Positions 27,733 through 42,646 of a DNA stretch of 64,000 nt are shown one piece after another. A program made the translations under genes and the position numbers. The notes beneath the pieces were generated by a model, which made no database searches, had not been told where the DNA came from, and saw only the letters and a list, made by a program, of their open reading frames with translations. The DNA comes from Candidatus Omnitrophota bacterium (lineage in GTDB: Bacteria > Omnitrophota > Gorgyraeia > JAHJTE01), in contig JAHJTE010000001.1 in NCBI GenBank assembly GCA_018830005.1, positions 129,332 through 193,331 on the forward strand, read 5' to 3'. Each line of letters begins with the position of its first letter. Position 1 is the stretch's first letter.

Positions 27733-28440
27733 ATGATTATCAAAAGAACAAAGATGATTATTGCTATGACCCTGGGGTTTATATTTGCAATCAACATTTC
27801 CTGCTATGCCACTGATTTTGAAAAGAATCAGATATTGAATTCTCGCCATATCTTGATTGGTACGATTGTCAAGGATAATCCTAGAGACTCCTTGGCAATC
27901 ATTAGAGATAGCACGAATGATAAAGATGCAAGTTACAAGGTTGGCCAAATTCTTGATGGATATTACATTGTTAGAATAAAACGGGCAGAGGTAGAACTTT
28001 TAAGGCAAGGAAAGATTTCCTCCTTAAGGCTGCCCTTAGGAGGCGGCGCTGAATTCATCACAATCGTTTCTGGAAACGAACGCATTGTTAACCGCACTGC
28101 TTTAAATGAGCGCTATAAGAATCTGAACGAAGTTTTTGGCGCTGGTATTGTGTTTCCTCACATTGAAAAGGGCAAGTTAGCAGGATTAAAGATTGTGCGT
28201 ATCAATGATGAAGAGCTTGCTAAGGCAACTGGCGTGAGCGAAGGTGATATAGTTATTTCGGTCAATAACCAGAAATTGACAGGTGTAAAACAAGCCTTAG
28301 ATGTTTATAATAAATTAAGAAATGAAGAAGAGATAGAGTTAGAGCTAAAGCGCAACGGAAAGTTGCATAAGTATAGTTATTATATGAATTGGGAAGAAGG
28401 AGGCAAGATACCAAGGCTGCTCAAAGAGCAGAAGTTATAA
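27733..28440 (+). CDS. GspC/PilP-like secretin-interacting protein with C-terminal PDZ domain (putative T2SS protein C)
   Basis: N-terminal signal/TM, HR-like beta domain (ILIGTIVKDNPRDSLAIIRD...YKVGQILDGYYIVRIKRAEVELL), PDZ-like GLKIVRINDEELAKATGVSEGDIVISVNNQKL. Confidence 0.45.
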   Translation: MIIKRTKMIIAMTLGFIFAINISCYATDFEKNQILNSRHILIGTIVKDNPRDSLAIIRDSTNDKDASYKVGQILDGYYIVRIKRAEVELLRQGKISSLRLPLGGGAEFITIVSGNERIVNRTALNERYKNLNEVFGAGIVFPHIEKGKLAGLKIVRINDEELAKATGVSEGDIVISVNNQKLTGVKQALDVYNKLRNEEEIELELKRNGKLHKYSYYMNWEEGGKIPRLLKEQKL

Positions 28441-28621
28441 TAATCTTTATTAAGGCTAAGATTAAATCTTGAAAAAGGCGAACTCTGGTGAAAGCCAGAG
28501 GGCATCCCGGAAGGGATCTTCCTAAGGGAAGGCAAAGCCATAAGGCCTAAAGTCCCCTAGATGTTTTAGGGACATGGCAGCTGGGTTACCAAGATATAAA
28601 CTATTTATAGAATATTATTTG

Positions 28622-28656
28622 CCCCAAGCTGTCCTTTTAGGCTTGGGGATTTTTTT
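28622..28656 (+). terminator. rho-independent terminator
   Basis: CCCCAAGC-(loop)-GCTTGGGG followed by ATTTTTTT. Confidence 0.6.
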
Positions 28657-28684
28657 GAAGTATAATTGATGAAAAGTGGGGTGA

Positions 28685-28939
28685 TTGAAGATGGACGCTA
28701 AAAGAAAAGCACTAAAACAAAAGGTAGTTACCTTCCTAAACCGCGAGGAGATAGACTTCTTAGACAAGCTAGGAAAAGACGCCTGGTTTTCAACAGGGAT
28801 GAAACTTTCTCGCACCCAGATAATCGAGGCATTGGTTAACTTGATGATGGAGATGGGTGTTGGAGGTAAAGGCGTTGATTCTAAAGAAGAGTTAAAGCAA
28901 CATATCCTCAAGGCCTTAGAGCGGTTCGAAGGGCAATAG
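28685..28939 (+). CDS. small hypothetical protein, possible ribbon-helix-helix DNA-binding fold
   Basis: Predicted beta-strand KVVTFLNREEIDFL followed by two helices; weak, pattern only. Confidence 0.3.
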   Translation: MKMDAKRKALKQKVVTFLNREEIDFLDKLGKDAWFSTGMKLSRTQIIEALVNLMMEMGVGGKGVDSKEELKQHILKALERFEGQ

Positions 28940-28971
28940 ATAAATAGAGAATAGATAGGAGAAGACCTAGA

Positions 28972-30579
28972 ATGAAAAAGACAAGGTTATTTATATTAGT
29001 ATGTTTGATATGCATTTCTTGGACAGCTCGACTATCTGCTATTGATTTGACTCTAGACGTAAAAACAGATAGCCAAGTGGCAGGGCAGACGCAACCTTAC
29101 GGCTATGTCAAGATAGAAGGTAGAAAGCTTTTAGTAGATTTTGATAAAGACGGAATATATGAACTATATTTTATTAAGGGTGTTGGCTATAGTCCTTATC
29201 CAATAGGCAGACAGCCTACTGAGTGGAATAAACCCAATATATTTAATGATAGCCAAATTCTTCATCGTGATTTTTCCCTGTTACAAGCAATGAATTGTAA
29301 CACTATTCGTATCTGGAAAGGAGATGATACTGAAGAAGATAATGGCAAATTTCCTTGTAAGATCACCAGGACTTTTAATCCAGAAAACCCAGGAACGCTT
29401 GATATTGCAGATGAATACGGTATCAAGGTCATAGCGGGATTTTGGATCCAGACGCAACAGCCGCGCTGTGAGGATGGGAAGGTAATATATGATGAATTAG
29501 CTTTTCTTACTGAGGGCAGCCTTGAACAAGATGATTTGTTATCTAGATTCCGAGCCTATGTTAATAAATTTAAATGGGATCCTGCTATTCTCTTTTGGGC
29601 TATCGGTAACGAAAACAACTTTCATATACCGCCGGATAGATTGCATGAGTGGTATGCGTTCGTAGATAAGATGGCTGAGATTGCTCATGAGGTTGAAGAT
29701 CCTGATAACTTTGGTTATTATCATCCAGTTGCAGTTGTTAACGGAGATATCATGTTTGATAAAGATACTGTTGTTATTGGAAATTATGATTTTGGAACGA
29801 CAGATGCACAGATGAGCCATTTGGATATTTGGGGAGCGAACGTCTATAGAGGGGATTCTTTTGGTGAGCTGTTCTCTGATTTTGCAGCTAACTCAGATAA
29901 ACCAATTTGGATAGCTGAATACGGCGTAGATGCCTGGCATGTTGATGACTGGCAGGATGAGCAGCCTGGGATTGGTTTTGAAAATCAGGATATCCAAGCT
30001 CAATGGGTTGGTAAGCTTTGGGATGAGATTGCTGCTAATTCATCAGTTGCCAAGTGTGGGATAAGCATAGGAGCAACAGTTATGGAATATTCAGATGAGT
30101 GGTGGAAGCCGATTGAATGGGAAGAATCAGGTATCCATGATTACGATGGCGTTGGCCCTACTGATACTGACTGTCCTCCTGATCCTCTTGATGATGAAGA
30201 AAGAATTGATTGGTGGCCTGCTAGTCCGGATAATTTTTTTAATTCTGAATGGTGGGGGATTATGGCTATTAGCCGTCCATACCCTGATGATGGGGGGCCA
30301 GATATTATGACACCTCGTTTAGTGTATTACACTTTACAAGATAAATTTGCAGATGAACAACCACATCTTTTCCTCTGCGGTGATGCTAATGCAGATTGTA
30401 GCCTCAATATAGGAGATCCTGTTTATTTGATTAATTATAGTTTTAAGGGCGGCCCAGCACCTGAACCTCTGGAGGCAGGCGATGCCAATGGAGACGGTAG
30501 TGTTAATATAGGTGATGCTGTTTATCTGCTTCACTACATCTTCAAGGGCGGCCCAGCACCGGTGTGCGTAGGAAACTAA
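28972..30579 (+). CDS. secreted clan GH-A glycoside hydrolase (TIM-barrel, GH5/GH2-like) with C-terminal tandem type-I dockerin repeats
   Basis: Signal peptide; AIGNENN (acid/base NEN) and WIAEYGVD (nucleophile Glu) motifs. C-terminus CGDANADCSLNIGDPVYLINYSFKGG...DANGDGSVNIGDAVYLLHYIFKGG gives two Ca-binding dockerin segments. Confidence 0.65.
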   Translation: MKKTRLFILVCLICISWTARLSAIDLTLDVKTDSQVAGQTQPYGYVKIEGRKLLVDFDKDGIYELYFIKGVGYSPYPIGRQPTEWNKPNIFNDSQILHRDFSLLQAMNCNTIRIWKGDDTEEDNGKFPCKITRTFNPENPGTLDIADEYGIKVIAGFWIQTQQPRCEDGKVIYDELAFLTEGSLEQDDLLSRFRAYVNKFKWDPAILFWAIGNENNFHIPPDRLHEWYAFVDKMAEIAHEVEDPDNFGYYHPVAVVNGDIMFDKDTVVIGNYDFGTTDAQMSHLDIWGANVYRGDSFGELFSDFAANSDKPIWIAEYGVDAWHVDDWQDEQPGIGFENQDIQAQWVGKLWDEIAANSSVAKCGISIGATVMEYSDEWWKPIEWEESGIHDYDGVGPTDTDCPPDPLDDEERIDWWPASPDNFFNSEWWGIMAISRPYPDDGGPDIMTPRLVYYTLQDKFADEQPHLFLCGDANADCSLNIGDPVYLINYSFKGGPAPEPLEAGDANGDGSVNIGDAVYLLHYIFKGGPAPVCVGN

Positions 30580-30673
30580 TAGATTATAATGAATTCTCTC
30601 CACCAGCCATGGAGGAGAATAAGGCCCTGTTGGATTTATCTGACAGGGCCTTCTCCGTTAGGGGCTAGATTTG

Positions 30674-30712
30674 CCCCGTTAGGTAACAAACATTTAACGG
30701 GGTTTACTTTTT
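30674..30712 (+). terminator. rho-independent terminator after the GH-dockerin gene
   Basis: CCCCGTTA-(loop)-TTAACGGGG followed by TTTACTTTTT. Followed by extended -10 TGTATAAT before gspE. Confidence 0.5.
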
Positions 30713-30758
30713 GCGTTTTAGGTTGTATAATTTACATTGAAATTAAAAGGAGTACAGA

Positions 30759-32474
30759 GTGCCTCTACGCGATTCCACAAAAACAATCGGTCAGATTCTT
30801 GTAGCTGAGAAGATAGTTACTGCAGAGGAGTTAGAGGTTGCCCTGCGGGAACAGAGAAAAACCAGCGGTTATCTTTGCCAGATAATTGTAAATTTAGGAT
30901 TTGCAAAAGAGGAAGAGATTTTTCCTATTCTAGCCAATCAGTTAGGCATACCCTATATCCGCATCAAAAACATAAATATTGCTCCTGAGGTAATAAAGAA
31001 GGTTCCGGCAAAATTTGTTTCCCATTATAAGTTGATGCCCATTTCTATGGTAGGTAATAAATTGACCATTGCTATGAGTGACCCCTTGGATTTGCATACC
31101 CTTGATGATATCCGTCTTTTTTTAGGCGTAGAAGTGGTTCCTGTATTAGCAGGCGATAACGATATTGCAGAATCAATCAGAAAATATTACGGCATAGGCG
31201 CAGAAACTGTTGATAGGATTGTTAAAGAGACTTCTCCCCAGACAAAGAAGCCAATTTCAACCAAGGCCGATATCGAGGACCTGGAGGCAATGGCAGAAGA
31301 TGCCTCAATTGTCAAATTTGTAAATCAGCTGCTTGTTCAGGCCCTTAAGGACAGGGCTACTGATGTTCATATTGAGCCTTTCGAAGATGAATTGCGTGTG
31401 CGTTTTAGAATCGATGGTGTTCTCTATGCAATCAACATTCCTTCTAATCTGCGCTATCTACATGCCTCCATTGTCTCGCGCGTTAAGATTATGTCTAATT
31501 TAGATATTGCTGAGAGACGGCTTCCTCAAGACGGCCGGATTAAAGTGAAGATCGGTAAATATCAACTGGACCTGCGTGTTTCCATAATACCTTCTAATTT
31601 TGGAGAATCAGTACATATTAGAATCTTAAGTCCAGAATCATTTTTGGAGTTAGGGAAGTTAGGCCTACTTGAAAAGGACCTTAAGATAATTGAGCAAGCG
31701 ATTAAGACATCCCACGGTATAATCTTTGTTACCGGCCCGACTGGAAGCGGTAAGACTACTACGCTTTATGCGGGCCTAGCTAAGATAAACAAGAGCCCCT
31801 TAAAGATAATTACCATTGAGGATCCAATTGAATATCAACTTAAAGGTGTTATTCAACTTCAAGTGCAGCCCAAAATCGGTTTTGATTTTGCCCAAGGATT
31901 GCGCTCTATGTTGCGTCATGACCCGGATGTTATGATGGTAGGAGAGGTGCGTGATTTTGATACTGCAGAGATTGCAATCCGAGCTGCCTTAACTGGCCAC
32001 CTTGTATTTTCAACTCTGCATACAAATGATGCCTCTGGTGCAGTAACGCGGCTTCTGGATATGGGCGTTGAACCGTTTTTAATCTCTTCCAGTATAGAGT
32101 GTTTGATTGCCCAGCGCTTGGTGAGAGTGATATGCCCTAAGTGTAAAAACAAGCAGAAGATGAGCAAGGCTGCCCTTAAGGAATTGGGATTTCGCATTGA
32201 AGAGAATGAAGTCTTGACATATAAAGGCAAAGGCTGTTCTGATTGTCGTATGACAGGTTTTCGCGGAAGAACCGGGATATATGAGATTTTATTAGTAAGG
32301 GAACCTATACGCGAGCTCATCTTAAGTCGCGCCTCAAGTCAGCAGATAAAAAAGAAGGCCATAGATTTAGGCATGCTTACTTTAAGGCAGGATGGCTGGC
32401 AGAAGGTCTTAGAAGGGATTACTACAATAGATGAGGTCATCCGCCTAACGCAGCAGGAAGAATTACCAGTATAG
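30759..32474 (+). CDS. gspE: type II secretion system ATPase GspE (PilB-like)
   Basis: N-terminal MshEN/GSPII-N domain, Walker A GPTGSGKTTT, Asp/His boxes, tetracysteine Zn motif CPKC...CSDC. Confidence 0.85.
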   Translation: MPLRDSTKTIGQILVAEKIVTAEELEVALREQRKTSGYLCQIIVNLGFAKEEEIFPILANQLGIPYIRIKNINIAPEVIKKVPAKFVSHYKLMPISMVGNKLTIAMSDPLDLHTLDDIRLFLGVEVVPVLAGDNDIAESIRKYYGIGAETVDRIVKETSPQTKKPISTKADIEDLEAMAEDASIVKFVNQLLVQALKDRATDVHIEPFEDELRVRFRIDGVLYAINIPSNLRYLHASIVSRVKIMSNLDIAERRLPQDGRIKVKIGKYQLDLRVSIIPSNFGESVHIRILSPESFLELGKLGLLEKDLKIIEQAIKTSHGIIFVTGPTGSGKTTTLYAGLAKINKSPLKIITIEDPIEYQLKGVIQLQVQPKIGFDFAQGLRSMLRHDPDVMMVGEVRDFDTAEIAIRAALTGHLVFSTLHTNDASGAVTRLLDMGVEPFLISSSIECLIAQRLVRVICPKCKNKQKMSKAALKELGFRIEENEVLTYKGKGCSDCRMTGFRGRTGIYEILLVREPIRELILSRASSQQIKKKAIDLGMLTLRQDGWQKVLEGITTIDEVIRLTQQEELPV

Positions 32475-32514
32475 GATGAGTTAATAGTCTTAGATCTTTA
32501 GACTACTTAAGATT

Positions 32515-33732
32515 ATGCCTACATTTACCTACAAGGCAAAATTAGGTCCCAGCAAATTAGAACAAGGCTCAATCGAGGCTGAAAATCAAGAACAGGCAAT
32601 TAAGAAGATAAGTGATTTAGGGCTGTTTCCTGTAGAGGTACGGCCTTATAAGCAGTCAAAGAATATATCTTTATTCGCTAGGTTTGGACAGAGAAACAAG
32701 ATTAAAAATCAGGAAGTTATTAGCTTGACCCGCCAGTTAGCAAGCCTCTTGGAAGCTGGATTAAATATCCTCCCAGCCCTTAATGCCATAAAAAGCCAAT
32801 TAGTAATGCCTGCTTTAGTTTCTCTCGTTGATGATATTGCCCAAAATGTAAAAGATGGTGCATCATTCTCCGAAAGTCTAAGCCACCATAAAGATATTTT
32901 CTCTAGCCTTTATATCAATGTTGTAAGAAGCGGCGAATTGAGTGGAAGGTTAAATCACGTATTAGATACCTTAGCTGATTTTTTAGAAAAAGGCGAAGAT
33001 CTACGTCAGAGAATAATCTCTGCTTTAGTTTATCCTGTATTGGTTTTGGCAGTAGGCATTTTAACAGTAGCAGTCCTTTTGATTTTTGTCATTCCGCGTA
33101 TCGGGGTAATGTTTGAGGATATGGGTCAGGTGTTGCCTCTTCCCACACAGATAGTCGTGGGTATAAGCTCAATGATAGTAAATTATTTTTTTGTTTTTTT
33201 TGCAATTATAGTAGTTTTATTTTTCTTCATTAATAAGAGGATTAAAACAAAAGAAGGTAGAATTTTTGTTGACCGCAGCAAACTCAAAACTCCTCTTTTA
33301 GGGATGTTCATTCGTAAACAACACATCGTTCAATTTTCTCGCACCTTATCTCTACTCTTAGCAAGCGGTATTCCAATTGTGACTGCCTTAGAGCTGGTGG
33401 CTAATACCTTATCTAACGGAATGATCAGGCAAGAGGTAAAGACAATGTCTACTGCAATACGCGAGGGAGCTAGTCTTTCAACCTCAATAAAGGAGAGCAA
33501 ATATTTTCCTGCATTCGTCTCCAGTATTATTGCCGTTGCAGAAGAATCAGGAAGTTTAGATAGGTCGCTTGCGCGTTTAGCAAGCAGTTTTGAGCGTGAT
33601 GTAGAAAGGATTATTAAGACATTTACCGTAGCCTTAGAGCCAACACTCATTTTCCTCATTGGTTTAGTTGTTGGTTTTATAGTAATAGCAATGCTGCTTC
33701 CAATTTTCCAGATTAACTTGATTGTGGGTTGA
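32515..33732 (+). CDS. gspF: type II secretion system inner-membrane platform protein GspF (PilC-like)
   Basis: Duplicated GspF domain and 3 TM segments. Follows gspE. Confidence 0.8.
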   Translation: MPTFTYKAKLGPSKLEQGSIEAENQEQAIKKISDLGLFPVEVRPYKQSKNISLFARFGQRNKIKNQEVISLTRQLASLLEAGLNILPALNAIKSQLVMPALVSLVDDIAQNVKDGASFSESLSHHKDIFSSLYINVVRSGELSGRLNHVLDTLADFLEKGEDLRQRIISALVYPVLVLAVGILTVAVLLIFVIPRIGVMFEDMGQVLPLPTQIVVGISSMIVNYFFVFFAIIVVLFFFINKRIKTKEGRIFVDRSKLKTPLLGMFIRKQHIVQFSRTLSLLLASGIPIVTALELVANTLSNGMIRQEVKTMSTAIREGASLSTSIKESKYFPAFVSSIIAVAEESGSLDRSLARLASSFERDVERIIKTFTVALEPTLIFLIGLVVGFIVIAMLLPIFQINLIVG

Positions 33733-33765
33733 TGCAGGGATGATCGCAGATAACCGGAGGTAAAT

Positions 33766-34657: not shown

Positions 34658-34663
34658 GATATA

Positions 34664-36847: not shown

Positions 36848-36851
36848 TACA

Positions 36852-38300
36852 ATGAAGAGATTAAAAGCCAAGAAGAATGTCTTTAGCAGCGTCGAGCTGA
36901 ATCATGACTCGATTAAAATTGCTCAGGCAGAGTCAATTTTAGGAAAACCAAAATTTACCCATCTTTTTTACTCCCGCGTCGGCGACCTATCTAAGAAAGA
37001 AACTCAAGGCAAGATTAGGAGCCTCTTAAGCAAGGAGCAAATCGAAATTACAAATTGCCTTCTTTGTCTGCCTCGCCACAACGTAACAACCCGCTATCTT
37101 AAGCTGCCCAGTTTAGAAGAGCAAGAGATTGAAAAGATGCTTATGCTTCAAATCCCTAAATTGCTTCCTTATGCACCGGGAGAAATACTATCCAGTTACA
37201 AAAAGATTACTTCTGATAGTGAAGGTTATACTTATTGTATTGTGATTTTAGCCCAAGAAAATCTAGTAAGGCGTTATCTTTCGTTTCTTAAGGCCATAGG
37301 CATAGAGGCCTCAAGTGTTATTTTAAGTTCAGAAGTATGTGCTCACTGGCTAAGATTTATTAATAAAGTGAACATTAAAAATGAGACGATTGTTCTTATT
37401 GATGTCGATACGAGTAGTGTTGATATTATGATTATAAATGGGGGAGAACTAATTTTTACTCGTAGTTTTTCACGCGAATTACAAGATACGCAAGGTCTAT
37501 CCTGGCAGAATAAACTTCAGGATGAGATAAGGCGTACATTGGAGACTGCTGAAAAGGAAATAGGTAAGCAGAATATAACTCGCCTTATCTTAAGCGGCAG
37601 CCGTTTAGCCACAAAGGATACGGATAAGGCATTATCCGAAAATTTTTCTCGTCCTGTAGAAATTATCTCTAGACTTGAGGAGGAATGTATTAAGTCGCAG
37701 GCCTCAATAGCAAAGACCTTACGAGAATCAGATACCTCCTTTACCTCAGTTATGGGAGCTGCAGTTAGCAGGCAGAATTTTTCTATAAATCTTTTACCTG
37801 CGGATATTAAGGCCAGGCTAAATTGGCAAAGGCTAAAAAAGGAACGAGTCAAATGTATATCTTTAGTTCTATTAATTATTGCATTTTCTTTTGGTCTCTT
37901 TGTTAAACATATTTATGATAAACAGAGGCTCTTAAAAACATTAGAGCAGAAGATAGCAACATTATTGCCAGAAGCCACTATGAGAGAGAAGATAAGTTCA
38001 CGCCTGGAGATAATACGCGAGCAGTTAAAATCAAAGGTTTTTACCGCCCAGCTTATAAAAGAAATATACACTATCATTCCTGACAAGATATATTTAAATA
38101 GCCTTAGTATTCAAAAAGATGAGATTTTGATAATAAAGGGGCAGGCCGATAAATTATCTAATGTCTTTACTCTTGTAGGGGCCTTGGAAAAAAGTACATA
38201 TTTCCAAGACGTACGCGTGCGTTATGCTACGAAGAGAAAAGTCAAAACAGTTGAAATTACGGATTTTCAGATAGATTGTCCCCTAAAGGATAGCGAATAG
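36852..38300 (+). CDS. GspL-like assembly protein (PilM-type actin-like ATPase fold fused to PilN-type TM/periplasmic domain)
   Basis: ~320-aa cytoplasmic PilM-like region, TM helix (ISLVLLIIAFSFGLFV), ~130-aa periplasmic tail. Position between gspK and the gspM-like gene. Confidence 0.6.
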   Translation: MKRLKAKKNVFSSVELNHDSIKIAQAESILGKPKFTHLFYSRVGDLSKKETQGKIRSLLSKEQIEITNCLLCLPRHNVTTRYLKLPSLEEQEIEKMLMLQIPKLLPYAPGEILSSYKKITSDSEGYTYCIVILAQENLVRRYLSFLKAIGIEASSVILSSEVCAHWLRFINKVNIKNETIVLIDVDTSSVDIMIINGGELIFTRSFSRELQDTQGLSWQNKLQDEIRRTLETAEKEIGKQNITRLILSGSRLATKDTDKALSENFSRPVEIISRLEEECIKSQASIAKTLRESDTSFTSVMGAAVSRQNFSINLLPADIKARLNWQRLKKERVKCISLVLLIIAFSFGLFVKHIYDKQRLLKTLEQKIATLLPEATMREKISSRLEIIREQLKSKVFTAQLIKEIYTIIPDKIYLNSLSIQKDEILIIKGQADKLSNVFTLVGALEKSTYFQDVRVRYATKRKVKTVEITDFQIDCPLKDSE

Positions 38301-38312
38301 CTAGAGAATAAA

Positions 38313-38846
38313 ATGAAATTGATAAGTCAGCTGTCGAAAAGAGAAAAGAACATTTTTTATTTTACTATATTAATTATTGCCTTTAGCCTGATATTCAAAT
38401 TTATCTTGTTGCCTTTGTTTAATTTAAATCAGAGATTAACACAAGAGGTTAAAGCAAAAGAGATAGAACTGGTAAGGGCGAGGCGACTTTCTAAAGGCGG
38501 ATCAGTGCAAAGTCAATATGATGCATTCATTGCTGCGATTAAGATGGGTGAAAGCCAGGATTTGGAAATGGCCCGCTTACTTTCTGAAATAGAGTCAATA
38601 GCCAAAGAGGCAGGTGTGAATATCTTGAATTTAAGACCTCATGAGATAGAAGATAAGAGGTTTTATAAGAGATTTCTCATTGAATTAAAGTCTGAAGGAA
38701 CAAGCCAGCAAATTTTAAGATTTATATTTTCGTTAGAATCCTCACAACTCCTGTTGAGGATTGAGAAGTTTAACCTCAGCTCAAGAATCTCTAAGGGGAA
38801 TCTCCTTAATGCCACATTAACCGTCTCTAGAGTGGCAATTCCTTAA
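38313..38846 (+). CDS. GspM/PilO-like bitopic membrane protein
   Basis: N-terminal TM, coiled-coil region, C-terminal ferredoxin-like region. Gene order. Confidence 0.5.
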   Translation: MKLISQLSKREKNIFYFTILIIAFSLIFKFILLPLFNLNQRLTQEVKAKEIELVRARRLSKGGSVQSQYDAFIAAIKMGESQDLEMARLLSEIESIAKEAGVNILNLRPHEIEDKRFYKRFLIELKSEGTSQQILRFIFSLESSQLLLRIEKFNLSSRISKGNLLNATLTVSRVAIP

Positions 38847-38873
38847 ATGAAGTCAGAACCCATTAAAAATTAC

Positions 38874-38902
38874 TTGACAAGGTTTAATTTTTGCGGTAAA
38901 AT
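38874..38902 (+). promoter_or_regulatory. sigma70-like promoter TTGACA-17-TAAAAT internal to the T2SS cluster
   Basis: TTGACA 38874-38879, 17-nt spacer, TAAAAT 38897-38902. Followed by 5'-UTR hairpin CACTCTC-TAGG-TGGAGAGTG that contains the RBS of the merR gene. Confidence 0.55.
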
Positions 38903-38925
38903 CACTCTCTAGGTGGAGAGTGATT

Positions 38926-39168
38926 ATGGTTCGCAACATATATCTATTAAAAGACTTAGCAAGAATTACAGGCTATTCAACGCATACTATAAAATATTAT
39001 CTTAAAATTGGTCTTATTAAGGAGTTTGGCCGTAGCCCGGAAACTAACTTCCGTTATTTTACAGACAATACAGTTAAACTCCTAGGTTATATTCGGCAAC
39101 TGCGTAAAGAAAAAAAATCCATTGCGTGCATAAAAGAAATTATTAAACATAAAAAGTATACTAAGTAG
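38926..39168 (+). CDS. MerR-family HTH transcriptional regulator (small, DNA-binding domain only)
   Basis: LKDLARITGYSTHTIKYYLKIGLI...FRYFTDNTVKLLGYIRQLRKE matches the MerR HTH plus start of the coiled coil. ATG at 38926 follows GGAGAG RBS. Confidence 0.7.
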   Translation: MVRNIYLLKDLARITGYSTHTIKYYLKIGLIKEFGRSPETNFRYFTDNTVKLLGYIRQLRKEKKSIACIKEIIKHKKYTK

Positions 39169-39179
39169 CTAATAGAAAA

Positions 39180-40004
39180 ATGAGCTATTTTAGCCAACTT
39201 GGCCTAACCCAGGAACCATTTTCGACAAGCCCAGATCCTGAATTTCTTTATCATTCCCTAGGTCACGAGACTGCCTTGAGGCGGCTTGAGATCTCCATAC
39301 GCTTACGCAGAGGATTAAGTCTTATTGTCGGTGATATTGGCACAGGAAAGACCACTCTTAGCCGCACCCTCTTTCAGGTATTTAAGAATGAGCCAGACTT
39401 TATTTTTCACCTCATACTAGATCCTAATTACAAAACTGAATTTCAATTTCTTTCTTCATTGATTAAGATGTTGGGGATACACCCGAATTTTAAGTCCACG
39501 CTGGATTATAAGGAGTCACTAAAGGATTATCTATTCGCAAAAGGTGTAGAGGAAAACAAGACAATAATTTTATTAATTGATGAGGGGCAGAAGTTGACTC
39601 CGGATCACCTTGAGATTCTAAGGAGCCTGCTTAATTATGAAACCAATGAGTATAAACTATTACAACTTGTGATTATGTCTCAAATGGAACTCTTACCACG
39701 TTTAAGAAGGGCGAAGAATTTCACTGACCGTATAGCCTTAAAATACATAATTAATCCCCTGGGCGAGAACGAGACAAAACAGATGATTGAATTTAGATTA
39801 CATCAGGCGGGATTTGATAAAGGAGCCAGCCTCTTTAGTGAAGAGGCGATGCGATTAATCTATGAATATACTCAAGGTTATCCGCGCAAGATTACTCTTC
39901 TTTGCCATGACGCATTGGAACTTTTGATCATGAAAGAAAAGAGAATAGTAGATAGAGGAATTGTTGAAGAGATTATAAACAGAGAGTCTTTTTTAAATGG
40001 ATAG
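39180..40004 (+). CDS. ExeA/GspA-like AAA+ ATPase
   Basis: Walker A GDIGTGKTTL, Walker B LLIDEGQ. Typical ExeA size and its association with T2SS. Confidence 0.75.
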   Translation: MSYFSQLGLTQEPFSTSPDPEFLYHSLGHETALRRLEISIRLRRGLSLIVGDIGTGKTTLSRTLFQVFKNEPDFIFHLILDPNYKTEFQFLSSLIKMLGIHPNFKSTLDYKESLKDYLFAKGVEENKTIILLIDEGQKLTPDHLEILRSLLNYETNEYKLLQLVIMSQMELLPRLRRAKNFTDRIALKYIINPLGENETKQMIEFRLHQAGFDKGASLFSEEAMRLIYEYTQGYPRKITLLCHDALELLIMKEKRIVDRGIVEEIINRESFLNG

Positions 40005-40656
40005 ACCATCACCAGAAGAAAAATTATTGCGCCTGATTAAAGACGCTACTGGAAAGGGGGCCCGGCAGAAGAAAAAGCAGGCCGATGCACAGGAGAGCGT
40101 GCAGCCTTCGTCGCCAGAGCTTCCAGTCCGAACCCAAAAGTTGCGGACACATCAAAAGCGGATCAAGAAGCTCAAAACCCCTATTTTCAGCTTTAAATTT
40201 ATAAATAAGGTCTTGCATACTTTGCTTGTAATTATATTTTTATTTTTTGTTTTTAACATTATCTATAGCAGCAGAGAAATAAGCCAGGTAGAAAGAGAGG
40301 GATTTGAAAAGGATAAGGATTTAGAATTTGCTTCTTTTCCTGAAACCCTTGAGGGGGAATTTACTGACTATCTGTCAGCCGGCAGGAGGCGTGATATATT
40401 TACTTCCTCTGGCATGCAGATGATATCCGAAGGTTTAGCATCTTCTATATTTGATGCGGAGCAGTATGTTGGTAAGCTAAAATTATTAGGCATAATTTCA
40501 GGCATTAAGTCTCAAGCAATTGTTGAGGATCAGAACGAAAATAAAAATTACACCTTAAGTGTTGGTGATTATTTAAAGGAGTTCTTAGTTGAAGAAGTAG
40601 GAAAAGGTAAAGTGCTATTTGATTATAAGGGTGAGAAGTTTGATTTGTATCTATAA
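39997..40656 (+). CDS. bitopic protein in the ExeB/GspB position; C-terminal PilP/GspC-HR-like beta domain
   Basis: Basic N-terminus, single TM (VLHTLLVIIFLFFVF), C-terminal LKLLGIISG...QAIVED...YTLSVGDYL...KVLFDYKGEKFDL resembles the PilP/GspC secretin-binding beta-sandwich. Confidence 0.35.
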   Translation: MDRPSPEEKLLRLIKDATGKGARQKKKQADAQESVQPSSPELPVRTQKLRTHQKRIKKLKTPIFSFKFINKVLHTLLVIIFLFFVFNIIYSSREISQVEREGFEKDKDLEFASFPETLEGEFTDYLSAGRRRDIFTSSGMQMISEGLASSIFDAEQYVGKLKLLGIISGIKSQAIVEDQNENKNYTLSVGDYLKEFLVEEVGKGKVLFDYKGEKFDLYL

Positions 40657-40720
40657 ACGATTGTCTACCTGCGGACACGTTTGGCTAAGGTGGACATAAT
40701 AGATTAAATGGAGGTCCATT

Positions 40721-42646
40721 ATGATTAATACGAAAATATTCCCAATTTTGACATTAGTGATTTTTCTGATCTTTCCTTTTGGTGTCCTTGCCCAGCAAGA
40801 AGCAGAAGTTCAAGAAGACCCAATGAACAAGGAGCTGCAAATTAAAGAAGAGCCCTTGGATGAGACGATTTCTCTTGATATCAAGGGTATGGATATTGTA
40901 GATGTCCTAAAGACATTGGCTATGCGTTCAGGATTAAATATCGTCGTGGGTAAAAATGTAGTGGGAAAGGTCACCATCTTCTTAAAAGGTGTTATGCCGC
41001 GTCAGGCCCTTGACATAATCTTATTGGCTAATGGTCTTGCATACGAAGAGCAGGATGGAATTATTAGTGTAATGACTGACCGCGATTATGAAGCGCGCTT
41101 CGGTGAAAAATTTGCCGACAAAAAAGAGATTTCTGTCGTAAAGTTAAAATATGCTAAGGCAGCGAATTTGGTCCCTACCCTCAACCAGATGAAGTCTACG
41201 ATTGGTAAGGTTTTTGTCGATGAGGGATCTAATGTAGCTGTACTTATGGATACCCCAGAGAGATTATCGCAGATGCGCCAGATGTTACTTCATATTGACC
41301 GTCCAACCCAGACGCGCATATTTGATCTTAACTACTCAGATTCGGATAAGCTCCAGAATAAAATTCAAGAAATGCTAAGTAAAAACATAGGAACCATTAC
41401 GATTGATGAGCGCACTAATAAGATTATTGTCACTGATTATTCTGAAAAAATAGATAATATTGCAAAGATTATTAATGCCTTTGATTCGCGTACGCGTCAG
41501 GTGCTCATTGATTCTAAGATTGTTGAAATCACCTTAAGTGATAGGTTTCAACTTGGCATTGACTGGGAATATTGGATTGAAAAGAATTTCAAGGTTGGCA
41601 ATACCTTTCCTTTAAGCCTTACTACAGGCGGCACATTGACACTGGGTACTACTAGCGCGATAGACGAGGTAGGTGAATATAAAAGTGTTGTTGACATGCT
41701 AAGAACTATTGGAGACACGCGCGTTCTCTCAAGTCCCAGAGTAACGGCATTGAATAATGAGGAGGCAAAGATTCTTATCGGCACAAAAGAAGCCTATATT
41801 ACCCAGACTACTTCTCAATCGGGCACAGGAGCAACTATAACTGCCGAAAGCGTTAATTTTGTTGATGTGGGAGTTCAGCTTTACGTTACGCCCACTATCA
41901 ATCAAGAAGGTTTTGTGACAATGAAAATAAAGCCAGTAGTAAGCTCTGCTGTACGCACAGAGATAACAAGCGGCGATACAATAAGTGAAATACCTATTGT
42001 CTCTACTTCTGAGGCCGAGACATCGGTGATGGTTAAAGACGGCTCAACTATAATAATTGCTGGTTTAATTAAAGACGAGATAATTCAGACAATAAATAAA
42101 ATCCCGGTTTTAGGAGATATACCCATACTCGGCCACCTATTTAAAAACACGAGTGATGAGGTTAGAAAGAAGGAACTTGTAATATTTTTAACTCCTCATA
42201 TACTCTCTCCTTCCTTAGTTGAAACCAAGGCTAATGCCTTAGAATTTGAAGAAAGCATTAATACTTTAGAGCATTATAATAAACCTGAGCCAGACAAGAT
42301 ACGTTCGCTAAAGTCCGAGGAGAGCCAAGCAGAATTAAAGAACGATGAGGATTCCCTAGATTTAAGTTACGTTGGATATCTTACCCGCTTGCGCAAAATT
42401 ATAGCTGAGCAGGCAAGCAATATTGCCAGAGATGATTTTTCATCTGGGAAAGTAGAGATTTCTTTTGTTCTGGGTGCTGATGGTAAGTTGTTGGCAGATC
42501 CAGAGGTTGCCTTTGCCACAAGTGATGATTTAGGAGAGCTTGCCTTAAAGGCAGTACTTGCCTCAAGTCCTTTTCCGCCTTTTCCTGAAGATTTAAAAAG
42601 AAAACAAGAACGTTTTGATATTGTTATTTCTTATTCAGAAAAATAG
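40721..42646 (+). CDS. gspD: secretin (GspD/PilQ family) with C-terminal TonB-C-like domain
   Basis: Signal peptide, N0/N1-like domains, secretin core (VLIDSKIVEITL...IPVLGDIPILGHLFKNT...LVIFLTPHIL). Followed by ~100-aa tail GKVEISFVLGADGKLLADPEVAFATSDDLGELALKAVLASSPFPPFP matching the TonB C-terminal domain pattern. Confidence 0.8.
   Translation: MINTKIFPILTLVIFLIFPFGVLAQQEAEVQEDPMNKELQIKEEPLDETISLDIKGMDIVDVLKTLAMRSGLNIVVGKNVVGKVTIFLKGVMPRQALDIILLANGLAYEEQDGIISVMTDRDYEARFGEKFADKKEISVVKLKYAKAANLVPTLNQMKSTIGKVFVDEGSNVAVLMDTPERLSQMRQMLLHIDRPTQTRIFDLNYSDSDKLQNKIQEMLSKNIGTITIDERTNKIIVTDYSEKIDNIAKIINAFDSRTRQVLIDSKIVEITLSDRFQLGIDWEYWIEKNFKVGNTFPLSLTTGGTLTLGTTSAIDEVGEYKSVVDMLRTIGDTRVLSSPRVTALNNEEAKILIGTKEAYITQTTSQSGTGATITAESVNFVDVGVQLYVTPTINQEGFVTMKIKPVVSSAVRTEITSGDTISEIPIVSTSEAETSVMVKDGSTIIIAGLIKDEIIQTINKIPVLGDIPILGHLFKNTSDEVRKKELVIFLTPHILSPSLVETKANALEFEESINTLEHYNKPEPDKIRSLKSEESQAELKNDEDSLDLSYVGYLTRLRKIIAEQASNIARDDFSSGKVEISFVLGADGKLLADPEVAFATSDDLGELALKAVLASSPFPPFPEDLKRKQERFDIVISYSEK

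What the first reader, a model, noticed from the sequence alone, without database searches (positions are those of the whole stretch)
27733..42646. Complete type II secretion system (gspC-like, E, F, G, H, I, J, K, L, M, exeA, gspB-like, secretin) with embedded cargo-like genes and regulator
Canonical T2SS order with a T2SS-specific GspG signature, but several non-canonical features. The gspC-like PDZ gene and a dockerin-bearing glycoside hydrolase are encoded between the giant protein and gspE. A MerR-type regulator with its own strong promoter sits between gspM and exeA. The L/M pair is of the PilM-N/PilO type. Together with the flanking giant protein, this looks like a dedicated secretion island for large extracellular carbohydrate-active or adhesive proteins.
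Basis: partly seen in the sequence, partly recalled or inferred. Interest (0 to 1): 0.55.

Follow-up and report, generated by a model that had tools for sequence, protein, structure and literature searches.

The report
Omnitrophota type II secretion locus
This is a real type II protein-secretion machine from an uncultured Omnitrophota bacterium; the machine is of an ordinary kind, but next to it lie large secreted enzymes and adhesin-like proteins controlled by c-di-GMP riboswitches, and it has a few unusual parts that are shared across the phylum.

Summary
On the + strand, 27733-42646 encodes GspC-like (HR+PDZ), a glycoside hydrolase with a dockerin, GspE, F, G, H, I, J, K, a PilM-PilN fusion (GspL equivalent), a PilO/GspM-like protein, an 82-aa MerR-type HTH protein, a short AAA_22 ATPase, a GspB-like TM+HR protein and a secretin. 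By gene content it is a T2SS: GspG passes its equivalog cut-off, GspK and GspC are present, and there is no PilT. The ATPase and secretin sequences alone do not separate T2SS from T4aP. The source is a Candidatus Omnitrophota MAG, and the order E...M-merR-AAA-gspB-D is conserved in at least 8 divergent relatives.

- Two c-di-GMP-I riboswitches, each with a terminator, precede the giant/gspC unit and the orf84/hydrolase unit. Relatives have them too.
- The slot upstream of gspE is a variable cassette of large secreted proteins.
- gspC is linked to giant proteins that end in a CFI-box-CTERM domain, not to the T2SS core.
- The secretin carries a C-terminal TonB_C-like domain, as do most of its close homologs. 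A conserved 18-bp palindrome lies just upstream of merR.

No prepilin peptidase is in the window. Verdict: a known kind of machine in a new variant. Moderate interest.

The parts
22036..22125 (+). c-di-GMP-I riboswitch aptamer no. 1, in the leader of the giant-protein/gspC unit
   Evidence: Rfam RF01051 47.9 bits (gathering 35), full model 1-87. The same element precedes the 2504-aa CFI-box giant in L087 (52 bits).
22136..22172 (+). Intrinsic terminator (CCCTTGGC-N11-GCCAAGGG-T8): the expression platform of riboswitch 1
   Evidence: Read from the sequence. The hairpin appears in the MFE and centroid folds. The same stem sequence is conserved in the leaders of relatives.
22223..27730 (+). 1835-aa secreted multi-domain protein (signal peptide, beta-helix, DNRLRE/CBM96-like, He_PIG, glucodextranase-B-like, PKD repeats) ending in a CFI-box-CTERM domain; candidate cargo
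   Evidence: Pfam. NF041770 CFI_box_CTERM 92.7 bits (cut-off 40) at residues 1756-1824. Large CFI-box proteins sit at the same position in L086 and L087.
27733..28440 (+). GspC-like protein (N-terminal membrane anchor, HR domain, PDZ); starts 3 nt after the giant gene's stop codon
   Evidence: PDZ_2 31 bits; T2SSC 22 bits (below cut-off); NF041515 113 bits (below its cut-off of 150). OutC 6HCG_e E=1.9e-5 over HR+PDZ. Homologs follow CFI-box giants in L086, L087, L088 and L134.
28467..28593 (+). c-di-GMP-I riboswitch aptamer no. 2, in the leader of the orf84/hydrolase unit
   Evidence: RF01051 36.3 bits (gathering 35). Stronger copies lie before orf84 homologs in L168 (58.4), L170 (48.5) and L169 (36.7).
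28621..28656 (+). Intrinsic terminator (GCCCCAAGC-N11-GCTTGGGG-T7): the expression platform of riboswitch 2
   Evidence: Sequence; fold; conserved design in relatives.
28685..28939 (+). orf84: small conserved all-helical protein of unknown function; it is the first gene after riboswitch 2 (the likely start is the ATG at 28691)
   Evidence: No Pfam or NCBIfam hit. Only 21 homologs, 41-90% identical. In 5 of the 6 contexts examined it lies directly upstream of a large secreted protein or hydrolase; in L087 two copies lie directly before gspE. AF2 model: four helices, pLDDT 81.7, no Foldseek hit with E<1.
28972..30579 (+). Secreted glycoside hydrolase (TIM barrel, GH2-catalytic-like) with a C-terminal double dockerin; candidate cargo
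   Evidence: Glyco_hydro_2_C E=3.6e-9; Dockerin_1 28 bits (above its cut-off of 22.9). The signal peptide MKKTRLFILVCLICISWTARLSA is read.
30673..30731 (+). Terminator (12-bp stem) followed directly by a promoter-like site TTTACT-17-TATAAT ahead of gspE
   Evidence: sequence.
30759..32474 (+). GspE-type assembly ATPase with an N-terminal MshEN domain
   Evidence: T2SSE 446 bits, MshEN 77 bits. TIGR02533 615 against TIGR02538 612 bits; NF053729 46.5 (above its cut-off of 38). 45.5% identical to E. coli GspE.
32515..33732 (+). GspF inner-membrane platform protein
   Evidence: T2SSF x2. TIGR02120 364 bits against PilC models at about 300.
33766..34194 (+). GspG major pseudopilin (prepilin motif G|FTLIE)
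   Evidence: TIGR01710 158.8 bits (above its cut-off of 88.85). Top PDB hits are all GspG. 49% identical to E. coli GspG.
34157..35775 (+). Three minor pseudopilins (GspH-, GspI- and GspJ-like: 34157-34657, 34664-35110, 35107-35775)
   Evidence: N_methyl motifs; T2SSJ 28.6 bits; weak GspH/XpsH and XpsI hits. The prepilin motifs A|FTLIE, G|FLLIE and G|ITFVE are read.
35786..36847 (+). GspK tip pseudopilin (no Glu at +5)
   Evidence: T2SSK_1st 76.5 bits. NF037980 120 bits (cut-off 130). 25% identical to E. coli GspK, E=3e-12.
36852..38846 (+). Assembly-platform pair: a 482-aa PilM-PilN fusion (GspL equivalent, 36852-38300) and a PilO/GspM-like protein (38313-38846)
   Evidence: PilM_2 plus PilN; PilO plus T2SSM_b. 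NF040576 GspM_XpsM 36.8 bits (cut-off 60).
38874..38921 (+). Promoter-like site TTGACA-17-TAAAAT, followed at once by the 18-bp palindrome ACTCTCTAGGTGGAGAGT (38904-38921); candidate operator of the MerR-like protein
   Evidence: The palindrome is unique in the window. It is present in 1-3 copies upstream of merR in all 8 relatives that have merR, each with a promoter-like site scoring 9-12 of 12.
38920..39168 (+). 82-aa MerR-type HTH protein with no effector or dimerisation domain
   Evidence: MerR_1 53.4 bits. Matches the BmrR N-terminal HTH, E=9e-5. 53-65% identical in relatives, and always placed just before the AAA_22 gene.
39180..40004 (+). Short cytoplasmic AAA_22 ATPase (GspA/MshM/PEP-CTERM-ATPase type)
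   Evidence: AAA_22 60.9 bits. TIGR03015 170 bits, covering model positions 3-264 of 269 (cut-off 324.5). 32% identical to the AAA domain of a full-length GspA (AAA_22 + C39-like + PG_binding_1) in L147. 56-69% identical in relatives.
39997..40656 (+). [quoted passage not shown]
   Evidence: Alignment A1. Its profile hits the GspC HR domain 3OSS_C, E=7.6e-5. hhalign to the HR domain of the window's own GspC gives E=2.4e-4.
40721..42646 (+). Secretin (N0, two N domains, secretin core) with a C-terminal TonB_C-like domain (residues ~552-641, nt ~42374-42643)
   Evidence: Secretin 165 bits, Secretin_N 84 bits. PilQ 268, GspD 254 and MshL 198 bits. The tail profile A3 hits the TonB C-terminal domain 5LW8, E=2.2e-7, and 24 of 25 tails match Pfam TonB_C. 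110 of the 120 closest homologs keep the tail.

Best explanation
The locus encodes a type II secretion system of a Candidatus Omnitrophota bacterium, organised as three transcription blocks.

(1) Cargo cassettes between nadA and gspE.
- The first unit is a c-di-GMP-I riboswitch with a terminator, followed by a 1835-aa signal-peptide protein that ends in a CFI-box-CTERM domain. A GspC (HR+PDZ) gene starts 3 nt after its stop codon.
- The second unit is a second c-di-GMP-I riboswitch with a terminator, followed by a small helical protein (orf84) and a glycoside hydrolase carrying dockerins.

(2) The gspE-F-G-H-I-J-K-L-M operon. It builds the inner-membrane platform, the ATPase and the pseudopilus.

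(3) A merR-like/AAA_22/gspB-like/secretin operon with its own promoter and an 18-bp palindrome. I read the palindrome as the operator of the MerR-like HTH protein.
- The short GspA-like ATPase and the GspB-like TM+HR protein would help place the secretin and tie its N0 ring to the inner membrane.
- The secretin's C-terminal TonB_C-like domain would take the place of the usual S-domain, pilotin or peptidoglycan anchor.

Proposed working:
- Sec exports the large proteins to the periplasm.
- GspC and GspB-like HR domains dock on the secretin.
- The GspG-K pseudopilus, driven by GspE, pushes the cargo out.
- Dockerin and CFI-box domains then hold the cargo on the cell surface or on a scaffold.
- Intracellular c-di-GMP sets cargo transcription through the riboswitches.

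What is shown: gene identities, their conservation, the riboswitch matches, the terminators and the palindrome. What is inferred: secretion of these particular proteins, the roles of the MerR-like, AAA_22 and TonB_C parts, and the sign of riboswitch control.
For: Gene identities.

Source and conservation:
- The source is an Omnitrophota MAG.
- The order E-F-G-H-(I)-J-K-L-M-merR-AAA-gspB-D is conserved in L004, L005, L006, L008, L009, L013, L016 and L018, although GspF is only 39-46% identical.

Operon breaks: a terminator plus promoter-like site lies before gspE, and the best promoter-like site of the region scanned lies before merR.

Palindrome: it is conserved before merR in all 9 loci that have merR and is unique in the window.

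Riboswitches:
- RF01051 scores above gathering twice in the window and in 4 relatives, always before a giant gene or an orf84-hydrolase unit.
- Each aptamer is followed by a conserved terminator.

Cargo slot: the genes upstream of gspE vary between relatives but are large secreted proteins. Examples are S8 proteases with dockerin, FG-GAP/He_PIG/PKD proteins and CFI-box giants.

Secretin tail: it is a TonB_C-like domain kept in 110 of the 120 closest homologs.

Literature:
- The HR domain of GspB binds secretin N0, and short GspA variants without a periplasmic part exist (PMC9239104).
- Secretion or pilus genes and GH2-type hydrolases flank the giant genes of Omnitrophota (10.1101/2023.11.21.568195 and 10.64898/2026.06.07.730766).
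Against: - No prepilin peptidase is in the window.
- The GspE core and the secretin do not separate T2SS from T4aP or MSH.
- The AAA_22 protein shows no similarity to E. coli K-12 GspA beyond the P-loop and scores below the cut-off of its best NCBIfam family.
- The GspB-like protein does not hit Pfam T2SSB.
- Riboswitch 2 is only 1.3 bits above gathering in the window.
- The MshEN motif of GspE departs from both the strict and the relaxed c-di-GMP motif at four key positions.
- In more distant relatives (L005, L008, L009, L013) the gene upstream of gspE is a housekeeping or signalling gene. Cargo adjacency is therefore lineage-specific.
- A 200-kDa protein is large for a T2SS substrate, and nothing here shows that it is exported this way.
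Confidence: 0.7

Rival explanations
1. The machine is a type IV-filament pilus (T4aP- or MSH-like) that builds an adhesive fibre, for example for attachment to host or prey cells. On this reading it is not a secretion system, and the neighbouring large proteins are exported by other routes.
For: - Over the same ATPase core, GspE scores as well against Geobacter PilB (418.6 bits) as against V. cholerae EpsE (413.6).
- The secretin scores slightly better with the PilQ model than with the GspD model, and some homologs are named MshL or PilQ by JGI.
- L and M hit the PilM, PilN and PilO families.
- An MshM-like AAA_22 ATPase and an MshEN domain are hallmarks of MSH loci (PMC6668835).
Against: - The major subunit is a GspG equivalog. 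T4 pilins match it only in the N-terminal helix.
- A GspK-type cap pseudopilin and a GspC with HR+PDZ are present.
- There is no PilT, no MshN-type TPR protein and no MshA-type pilin in the cluster.
- GspL is itself homologous to a PilM-PilN fusion (my own knowledge), so the Pfam names do not decide the matter.
Confidence: 0.1
2. It is a general housekeeping T2SS. The large proteins, GspC, the riboswitches and the hydrolase lie next to it by chance of gene order, and they are not its specific substrates.
For: - In L005, L008, L009 and L013 the gene upstream of gspE is a radical-SAM enzyme, RsmE or a histidine kinase.
- Most CFI-box-CTERM genes (47 of 56 informative loci) have no T2SS-type gene nearby.
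- An orf84-Peptidase_C1 unit with its riboswitch lies far from any T2SS in L169.
Against: - In six relatives the genes just upstream of gspE are large secreted proteins with different domain make-up (L004, L018, L086, L087, L168, L170).
- T2SS-type genes lie within about 10 kb of 9 of 56 CFI-box genes. A 12-kb cluster in a genome of a few Mb would give far fewer by my rough estimate, which is not a formal test.
- gspC, a T2SS-specific component, overlaps or abuts the CFI-box gene in several divergent lineages.
Confidence: 0.15
3. The secretin and pseudopilus export a polysaccharide or slime rather than proteins. This has been proposed for GspD/PilQ nozzles of cyanobacteria and myxobacteria.
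For: - The best NCBIfam family of the AAA_22 protein is the XrtA/PEP-CTERM (exopolysaccharide-locus) ATPase.
- GspJ has a weak hit to the hormogonium polysaccharide secretion pseudopilin HpsC.
- PMC12475490 links T2SS secretins to slime secretion.
- A sugar transferase follows the CFI-box/GspC pair in L088.
Against: - No glycosyltransferase, Wzx/Wzy or ABC polysaccharide-export genes lie in the conserved cluster.
- All of these hits are weak and below their cut-offs.
- The adjacent variable genes are signal-peptide proteins.
Confidence: 0.05

Closest known systems
Canonical proteobacterial T2SS (Gsp/Out/Eps/Xcp; E. coli K-12 gspC-O used here as reference)
   Same: - Same component set and the same internal order E-F-G-H-I-J-K-L-M.
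- GspG is 49%, GspE 45.5%, GspF 31%, GspK 25% and GspD 26% identical to the E. coli proteins.
- GspC has HR+PDZ, as OutC does.
   Different: - gspC is detached and sits behind a cargo gene.
- The secretin is at the end of the cluster, in a separate operon, rather than in a C-D-E order.
- L and M are of PilM-PilN/PilO sequence type.
- No gspO or gspN is in the locus.
- The secretin has a TonB_C-like C-terminus in place of an S-domain.
- GspE carries an MshEN domain.
GspA/GspB (ExeA/ExeB, OutB) secretin-assembly factors, especially the Alteromonas-type short GspA (PMC9239104)
   Same: An AAA+ ATPase gene is paired with a single-pass membrane protein whose periplasmic HR domain is the fold that binds secretin N0. 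Both lie next to the secretin gene.
   Different: - The ATPase has no TM or peptidoglycan-binding region and no detectable similarity to E. coli GspA beyond the P-loop.
- The GspB-like protein does not hit Pfam T2SSB.
- The pair is preceded by a MerR-like gene.
- The pair occurs outside the beta- and gammaproteobacteria, where GspB homologs were catalogued.
[quoted passage not shown] 2019, PMC6668835)
   Same: - An MshM-like AAA_22 ATPase and an ATPase with an MshEN domain.
- A PilM-PilN fusion (from my own knowledge, like MshI) and an HR/PilP-like protein before the secretin.
   Different: - The pilin set is GspG-H-I-J-K, not MshA-D.
- No MshN TPR protein is present.
- GspC is present.
- The MshL model scores below the PilQ and GspD models.
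Secretion or pilus loci flanking the giant genes of Omnitrophota (West-Roberts et al. 2023 preprint; 2026 complete-genome preprint)
   Same: Same phylum. Secretion genes lie next to very large adhesin- or CAZyme-like proteins and GH2-type hydrolases, and dockerin-like modules are present.
   Different: - Those loci are described through gspD/E/F plus rcpC, Flp and Tad-type genes and proteins of more than 30,000 aa.
- Here there is a full GspG-K pseudopilin set, GspC, and a 1835-aa protein.
- The passages I retrieved from those papers do not mention riboswitch control, the CFI-box link or the secretin-TonB_C fusion.
c-di-GMP-I (GEMM-I) riboswitches
   Same: The aptamers match RF01051 over the full model, sit in 5' leaders and are followed by intrinsic terminators. 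From my own knowledge, known examples control genes for adhesins, pili, secreted proteases and chitin-binding proteins.
   Different: They sit on the cargo cassettes of a T2SS locus in Omnitrophota. I found no paper in the library that describes this.
C-terminal sorting domains tied to T2SS cargo (GlyGly-CTERM/rhombosortase, MYXO-CTERM); analogy from my own knowledge
   Same: The CFI-box-CTERM is a conserved C-terminal tag on many paralogous large secreted proteins, often several per locus, and is sometimes next to T2SS genes.
   Different: - The CFI-box is about 70 aa and looks like amphipathic helices, rather than a TM helix plus a basic tail.
- No sortase-like partner is identified.
- Its link to T2SS is only statistical here (9 of 56 loci).

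Membership tests
Type II secretion system (TXSScan / Denise 2019 gene-content definition) | Major pseudopilin of GspG type | tested here: met
   TIGR01710 158.8 bits (above its cut-off of 88.85); T2SSG 113 bits; top 8 PDB hits are GspG; 49% identical to E. coli GspG.
Type II secretion system (TXSScan / Denise 2019 gene-content definition) | Minor pseudopilins GspH, I, J and K, with a GspK lacking Glu+5 | tested here: met
   GspK: T2SSK_1st 76.5 bits; NF037980 120 bits (cut-off 130). GspJ: T2SSJ 28.6 bits (cut-off 28). H and I have only weak hits (E 1e-7 and 7e-4). The prepilin motifs, and Val at +5 of GspK, are read.
Type II secretion system (TXSScan / Denise 2019 gene-content definition) | GspE ATPase, GspF platform and GspD secretin of T2SS rather than T4aP lineage | tested here: inconclusive
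   GspE model 615 against PilB model 612 bits. GspF model 364 against PilC models about 300. PilQ model 268 against GspD model 254. The ATPase core is equidistant from solved PilB and GspE. No reference phylogeny could be built.
Type II secretion system (TXSScan / Denise 2019 gene-content definition) | GspC (HR + PDZ or coiled coil) linking platform and secretin | tested here: met
   OutC 6HCG_e aligned over HR+PDZ, E=1.9e-5. NF041515 113 bits and TIGR01713 57 bits, both below their cut-offs. The gene lies outside the core operon.
Type II secretion system (TXSScan / Denise 2019 gene-content definition) | GspL and GspM assembly proteins | tested here: inconclusive
   A 482-aa PilM_2+PilN fusion and a PilO/T2SSM_b protein. 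NF040576 GspM 36.8 bits (cut-off 60). No T2SSL hit. The architecture fits GspL/M, but the sequence families are those of T4P.
Type II secretion system (TXSScan / Denise 2019 gene-content definition) | Prepilin peptidase GspO/PilD (may be encoded elsewhere) | tested here: not met
   No tblastn match to E. coli GspO in the 64-kb window. No Peptidase_A24 hit among the ORFs tested. The rest of the genome could not be searched.
Type IVa pilus | PilT/PilU retraction ATPase and a T4a major pilin | tested here: not met
   No second ATPase is in the cluster. The major subunit is of GspG type. A separate pilin-like gene at 58984-59679 was not followed up.
MSH pilus (Denise 2019: mshA, E, G, L, M mandatory) | MshM-type ATPase, MshE with MshEN, MshL secretin, MshA pilin, MshN | tested here: inconclusive
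   AAA_22 and MshEN are present. The MshL model scores 198 bits (cut-off 250.2), below the PilQ and GspD models. No MshA-type pilin or TPR protein is in the cluster.
GspA/ExeA | [quoted passage not shown] | tested here: not met
   The protein is 274 aa and has AAA_22 only. hhalign to E. coli K-12 GspA matches 21 columns around the P-loop. It is 32% identical to the AAA domain of a full-length GspA in L147. Short GspAs are known in Alteromonas (PMC9239104).
GspB/OutB | Single TM segment plus a periplasmic HR domain, encoded next to gspA and/or the secretin | tested here: met
   Alignment A1 shows N-terminal motif, hydrophobic segment and C-terminal domain. Its profile hits the GspC HR domain 3OSS_C, E=7.6e-5. 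It does not hit Pfam T2SSB PF16537, so the relationship is at fold and architecture level.
c-di-GMP-I riboswitch (Rfam RF01051) | Score at or above the gathering threshold over the full model, in a 5' leader, with an expression platform | tested here: met
   47.9 and 36.3 bits (gathering 35), model positions 1-87. Terminators lie directly downstream. Four relatives have hits of 36.7-58.4 bits at equivalent positions. Ligand binding was not tested.
MshEN c-di-GMP receptor domain | [quoted passage not shown] | tested here: inconclusive
   NF053729 46.5 bits (above its cut-off of 38) and MshEN 77 bits. The hydrophobic positions and both Gln residues are kept. However, T9, K18, Y38 and C40 violate even the relaxed motif.
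MerR-family transcription regulator | N-terminal winged HTH plus a C-terminal coiled-coil and effector domain | tested here: not met
   The HTH is present (MerR_1 53.4 bits), but the protein is only 82 aa, with no room for the effector or dimerisation part. It is a MerR-type DNA-binding domain protein, not a classical sensor.
TonB/TolA C-terminal domain | Match to Pfam TonB_C/TonB_2 and to solved TonB C-terminal domains | tested here: met
   The isolated tail scores TonB_2 25.2 bits (cut-off 22). 24 of 25 homolog tails hit TonB_C, best E=3.7e-10. The profile hits TonB CTD 5LW8, E=2.2e-7.
CFI-box-CTERM (NCBIfam NF041770) | C-terminal domain starting CFIAT..., scoring above the cut-off | tested here: met
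   92.7 bits (cut-off 40) at residues 1756-1824 of 1835. The same domain ends the giants of L086 and L087.

The most novel reading that the evidence does not exclude
The CFI-box-CTERM domain is a sorting or surface-retention tag for type II secretion, and the GspC gene encoded right behind CFI-box giants is a cargo-specific adaptor. Its PDZ or HR domain would recruit that giant to a shared T2SS. On this reading, Omnitrophota and some other uncultured lineages carry modular 'riboswitch - cargo - private GspC' cassettes that plug into one machine under c-di-GMP control.
Probability: 0.2. Interest if true: 0.75.

Novelty: new variant of a known kind. Interest (0 to 1): 0.45.

Why it matters
T2SS biology rests almost entirely on Proteobacteria. 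Omnitrophota are ultra-small, probably host-dependent or predatory bacteria known for very large surface proteins, and how those proteins leave the cell is open.

This locus gives a concrete model to test:
- a complete pseudopilus machine;
- a swappable slot of large secreted enzymes and adhesin-like proteins;
- direct c-di-GMP control of the cargo through riboswitches;
- a GspC gene that goes with the cargo rather than with the machine.

It also points to a phylum-wide secretin with a TonB_C-like tail and to a MerR-like/short-GspA/GspB secretin-assembly operon with a defined operator-like palindrome. These are possible answers to how secretins are piloted and anchored where pilotins and peptidoglycan-binding GspA are absent.

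If only the basic reading is true, this is one more T2SS in a candidate phylum.

Tried and rejected
1. Reference phylogeny of GspE. The plasmid collection gave mainly proteobacterial GspE and one Aeromonas chromosome mislabelled as a plasmid. The Aeromonas locus I fetched is unannotated and not clearly Tap, Msh or Exe, so I dropped the tree. Instead I compared scores over the same ATPase core.

2. Support for the 'exeA' label from E. coli K-12 GspA. BLASTP found nothing, and hhalign matched only the P-loop.

3. My first guess that orf84 is a ribbon-helix-helix regulator. The AF2 model is all-helical and Foldseek against the PDB found nothing with E<1, so I reject the guess and leave the function unknown.

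4. CFI motif next to the T2SS in the first 80 GspF-based relatives: none found. The link appeared only in closer relatives found through GspC and orf84.

5. An Rfam family for the merR leader and palindrome: none. I read it as a DNA operator. An RNA hairpin that hides the ribosome-binding site is not excluded.

6. ON or OFF sign of the riboswitches. The tail GCCAGGAGG could pair with the 5' arm of the terminator, which would make ligand binding favour termination. MFE folds show the terminator in any case, so I make no call.

7. Prepilin peptidase and c-di-GMP enzymes in the window: none among the ORFs tested.

8. The downstream ABC transporter (42699-44238) as part of the system: it is not conserved next to the secretin in relatives.

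Full report
**Observation.** The + strand of 27733-42646 is a tight run of ORFs.
- GspC-like protein: PDZ and a weak T2SSC hit. NF041515 'GspC_delta' scores 113 bits, below its cut-off of 150.
- A signal-peptide glycoside hydrolase (TIM barrel) with a dockerin.
- GspE (T2SSE 446 bits) with an MshEN domain.
- GspF.
- GspG: TIGR01710 scores 158.8, above its cut-off of 88.85.
- Three further prepilin-type proteins (H, I, J), then GspK (T2SSK_1st).
- A 482-aa PilM+PilN fusion and a PilO/T2SSM_b protein.
- An 82-aa MerR-type HTH protein and a 274-aa AAA_22 ATPase.
- A 219-aa protein with no Pfam hit.
- A secretin with N0/STN, two Secretin_N domains and the secretin core.

The prepilin cleavage motifs can be read directly from the translations: G|FTLIE in G, A|FTLIE in H, G|FLLIE in I and G|ITFVE in J. 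GspK has Val instead of Glu at +5, as GspK proteins do (the last point is from my own knowledge).

**Source and conservation.** The identical secretin lies on contigs of up to 848 kb, including GCA_043815545.1, and is named as coming from a Candidatus Omnitrophica MAG. A scan of one genome per species with GspF returned mostly Omnitrophota, at no more than 46% identity. Among the relatives examined, L004, L005, L006, L008, L009, L013, L016 and L018 keep the order E-F-G-H-(I)-J-K-L-M-merR-AAA-p219-secretin. The MerR-like protein (53-65% identical) and the AAA_22 protein (56-70%) are the best conserved genes of the cluster. Some relatives have a LacI-family regulator inserted between gspF and gspG. 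GC content is even across the window and the flanks are housekeeping genes: biotin genes, mnmA and nadA upstream, rnf downstream. Nothing indicates a mobile island.

**T2SS or pilus?**
- The pseudopilins decide the question. GspG is 49% identical to E. coli K-12 GspG over its whole length. Its eight best PDB matches are all GspG, and true pilins match only the N-terminal helix.
- GspK is 25% identical to E. coli GspK (E=3e-12).
- The GspC-like protein aligns to Dickeya OutC across HR and PDZ (6HCG_e, E=1.9e-5).
- There is no PilT.
- The motor and the pore are uninformative. The GspE and PilB models score 615 against 612 bits. Over the same ATPase core, Geobacter PilB, V. cholerae EpsE, Myxococcus PilB and V. 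vulnificus GspE score 418.6, 413.6, 409.4 and 405.4 bits. The secretin scores PilQ 268, GspD 254 and MshL 198.
- The AAA_22 ATPase, the MshEN domain and the PilM-PilN fusion recall MSH loci (PMC6668835), but MshA-type pilins and MshN are absent.

I could not build a reference phylogeny with the tools available. By gene content this is a T2SS. Its lineage position relative to T4aP and MSH remains open.

**The secretin sub-operon.**
- Promoter and palindrome. The best promoter-like site of the 17.8-kb region scanned (TTGACA-17-TAAAAT, 38874-38902) lies in the 73-nt gap before merR. It is followed at once by the 18-bp palindrome ACTCTCTAGGTGGAGAGT, which is unique in the window. All eight relatives with merR have a promoter-like site (9-12 of 12) and one to three copies of ACTCYCTA-NN-TAGRGAGT upstream of merR. 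No Rfam family matches there. I read the palindrome as the operator of the MerR-like protein, which has only the HTH part. This reading is an inference.
- AAA_22 protein. Its closest family is TIGR03015 (170 bits, nearly full-length, below the cut-off). It is 32% identical to the ATPase domain of a full-length GspA (AAA_22 + C39-like + PG_binding_1) that sits next to a T2SSB-domain GspB in locus L147. It shows nothing beyond the P-loop with E. coli GspA.
- The 219-aa protein. Its family has a conserved cytoplasmic motif (SPEEKLLRLIK), a hydrophobic segment and a C-terminal domain. The profile of that family hits the GspC HR domain of 3OSS (E=7.6e-5), and hhalign hits the HR domain of the window's own GspC. 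This is the GspB architecture. OutB uses its HR domain to bind secretin N0, and GspAs without a periplasmic part are known (PMC9239104).
- Secretin tail. The secretin ends in a roughly 90-aa domain that is kept in 110 of its 120 closest homologs. That domain matches Pfam TonB_C/TonB_2 in 24 of 25 cases and a solved TonB C-terminal domain (5LW8, E=2.2e-7). I found no paper describing such a fusion. Its position, where GspD proteins carry the S-domain (from my own knowledge), suggests a piloting, stapling or wall/outer-membrane anchoring role. This is untested.

**The cargo side.** Rfam finds two c-di-GMP-I riboswitches above the gathering score in the window.
- The first (22036-22125, 47.9 bits) lies before the 1835-aa protein.
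- The second (28467-28593, 36.3 bits) lies between gspC and orf84.

Each is followed by an intrinsic terminator: CCCTTGGC-N11-GCCAAGGG-T8 at 22136-22172 and GCCCCAAGC-N11-GCTTGGGG-T7 at 28621-28656.

Relatives have the same element at equivalent places, each with the same terminator design:
- before orf84 and a 1614-aa S8 protease with dockerin in L168 (58.4 bits);
- before orf84 in L170 (48.5 bits);
- before a 2504-aa giant in L087 (52 bits);
- before an orf84 homolog and a Peptidase_C1 protein in L169 (36.7 bits).

The 1835-aa protein has a signal peptide and ends in a CFI-box-CTERM domain (NF041770, 92.7 bits). gspC starts 3 nt after its stop codon.

The closest GspC homologs sit in the same arrangement: CFI-box giant, gspC, orf84, an optional dockerin hydrolase, then gspE (L086, L087). 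L168 and L170 have neither a giant nor gspC, but keep riboswitch-orf84-cargo before the T2SS. More distant relatives have an S8/FG-GAP/PKD protein (L018) or an FG-GAP/He_PIG/PKD protein (L004) just before gspE. The slot between nadA and gspE is therefore a variable cassette of large secreted proteins.

A metagenome scan with the CFI-box domain gave at least 528 relatives, and I examined 80 loci. T2SS-type genes lie nearby in 9 of the 56 loci with at least 1 kb of downstream sequence. These include GspC-like or roughly 250-aa PDZ genes that overlap or directly follow the CFI-box gene (L088, L134, L137, L123) or converge on it (L101, a bona fide T2SSC+PDZ protein). In L088 the giant-gspC pair stands without a T2SS on the 2.4 kb that follows. 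gspC thus goes with the cargo gene rather than with the machine. The association is suggestive, but it is the minority pattern.

**Other c-di-GMP hints.** GspE passes the NCBIfam c-di-GMP-motif model (46.5 bits, cut-off 38). However, it has T9, K18, Y38 and C40 where PMC5013675 requires R/K/P/N, G/A/S, R/K/P/N and G, so binding is uncertain. In L006 a receiver protein and a GAF-HD_5 (HD-GYP-type) protein follow the secretin.

**Mechanism proposed.**
1. c-di-GMP level sets transcription of the cargo cassettes through the riboswitches. The sign of this control is unknown.
2. Sec exports the giant protein and the hydrolase to the periplasm.
3. The E-M operon builds the platform and the GspG-K pseudopilus.
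4. The merR operon, probably autoregulated at the palindrome, supplies the secretin and its GspA/GspB-like helpers.
5. HR domains of GspB-like and GspC dock on N0, and GspC, made together with the giant, may select it.
6. The pseudopilus expels the cargo.
7. Dockerins and the CFI-box domain keep the cargo at the surface.

Only the parts list, its conservation and the RNA and DNA elements are shown. The rest is inference by analogy with characterised T2SSs.

**Comparison and novelty.**
- T2SSs outside Proteobacteria are already recognised (PMC6668835).
- Two preprints already report secretion or pilus genes and GH2-type hydrolases next to the giant genes of Omnitrophota. The passages I read describe gspD/E/F together with rcpC, Flp and Tad-type genes.
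- I found nothing in the library on the riboswitch-cargo cassettes, the cargo-linked gspC, the CFI-box domain (no paper at all), the secretin-TonB_C fusion or the merR palindrome.

The machine is a known kind. This is a new variant with several testable peculiarities. Interest is moderate.

**Dead ends.** The orf84 model is a four-helix protein (pLDDT 81.7 for the best model, 57-69 for the others) with no structural match. No prepilin peptidase or c-di-GMP enzyme was found among the window ORFs tested. The downstream ABC transporter is not conserved with the cluster.

Noticed in passing
window 13640-13753 (- strand): TPP riboswitch (RF00059, 62.5 bits, gathering 54.3) directly upstream of a Thi4-family gene at 12797-13570 on the - strand.
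   Followed up: no
window 58292-59679: A second prepilin-type gene (58984-59679, N_methyl motif, 231 aa) follows a 238-aa ORF with no family hit and a tRNA at 58076-58149. It may belong to another type IV filament system.
   Followed up: no
window 53343-54602: A serpin (PF00079, 425 bits) is encoded right after the Rnf-type genes. Bacterial serpins are uncommon, and it may relate to the secreted proteases seen in relatives.
   Followed up: no
L004 7000-8007, L005 11248-12252, L008 11368-12378, L009 11253-12257: A ~335-aa gene is inserted between gspF and gspG in four relatives. The L005 copy is a LacI-family regulator (LacI HTH + Peripla_BP_3) by Pfam; the others were judged by size and position only. 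This hints at sugar-responsive control of the pseudopilin genes.
   Followed up: partly
L006 10719-12144 (and probably L013 13330-14395): A receiver-domain protein and a GAF + HD_5 (HD-GYP-type) protein follow the secretin gene. This is a possible local c-di-GMP phosphodiesterase.
   Followed up: partly
L094, L109, L114, L132, L150, L167: Two or three CFI-box-CTERM-encoding genes lie in one locus.
   Followed up: partly
window 22137-22163 and 28621-28648; L168, L170, L087 leaders: The terminator stems after the c-di-GMP riboswitches share nearly the same sequence (CCCTTGG...CCAAGGG) across different genes and genomes. This suggests the riboswitch and terminator move or are kept as one module.
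   Followed up: partly
L170 10255-12540: In one relative the protein after orf84 combines He_PIG/Big_9 repeats with Hint/intein-like domains (PT-HINT). This suggests an autoprocessing secreted protein.
   Followed up: no
window 42699-44238: An ABC ATPase (DrrA/GldA-like) and a multi-pass membrane protein with no family hit follow the secretin. They are not conserved at this position in relatives.
   Followed up: partly
plasmid collection record NZ_AP026896.1 (L085): A 4.94-Mb Aeromonas caviae replicon is filed as a 'plasmid' in PLSDB with only 18 annotated features. It is evidently a chromosome.
   Followed up: no
window 47741-47813 and 47932-48004: Two tRNA genes lie downstream of the SNase-like nuclease gene.
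   Followed up: no
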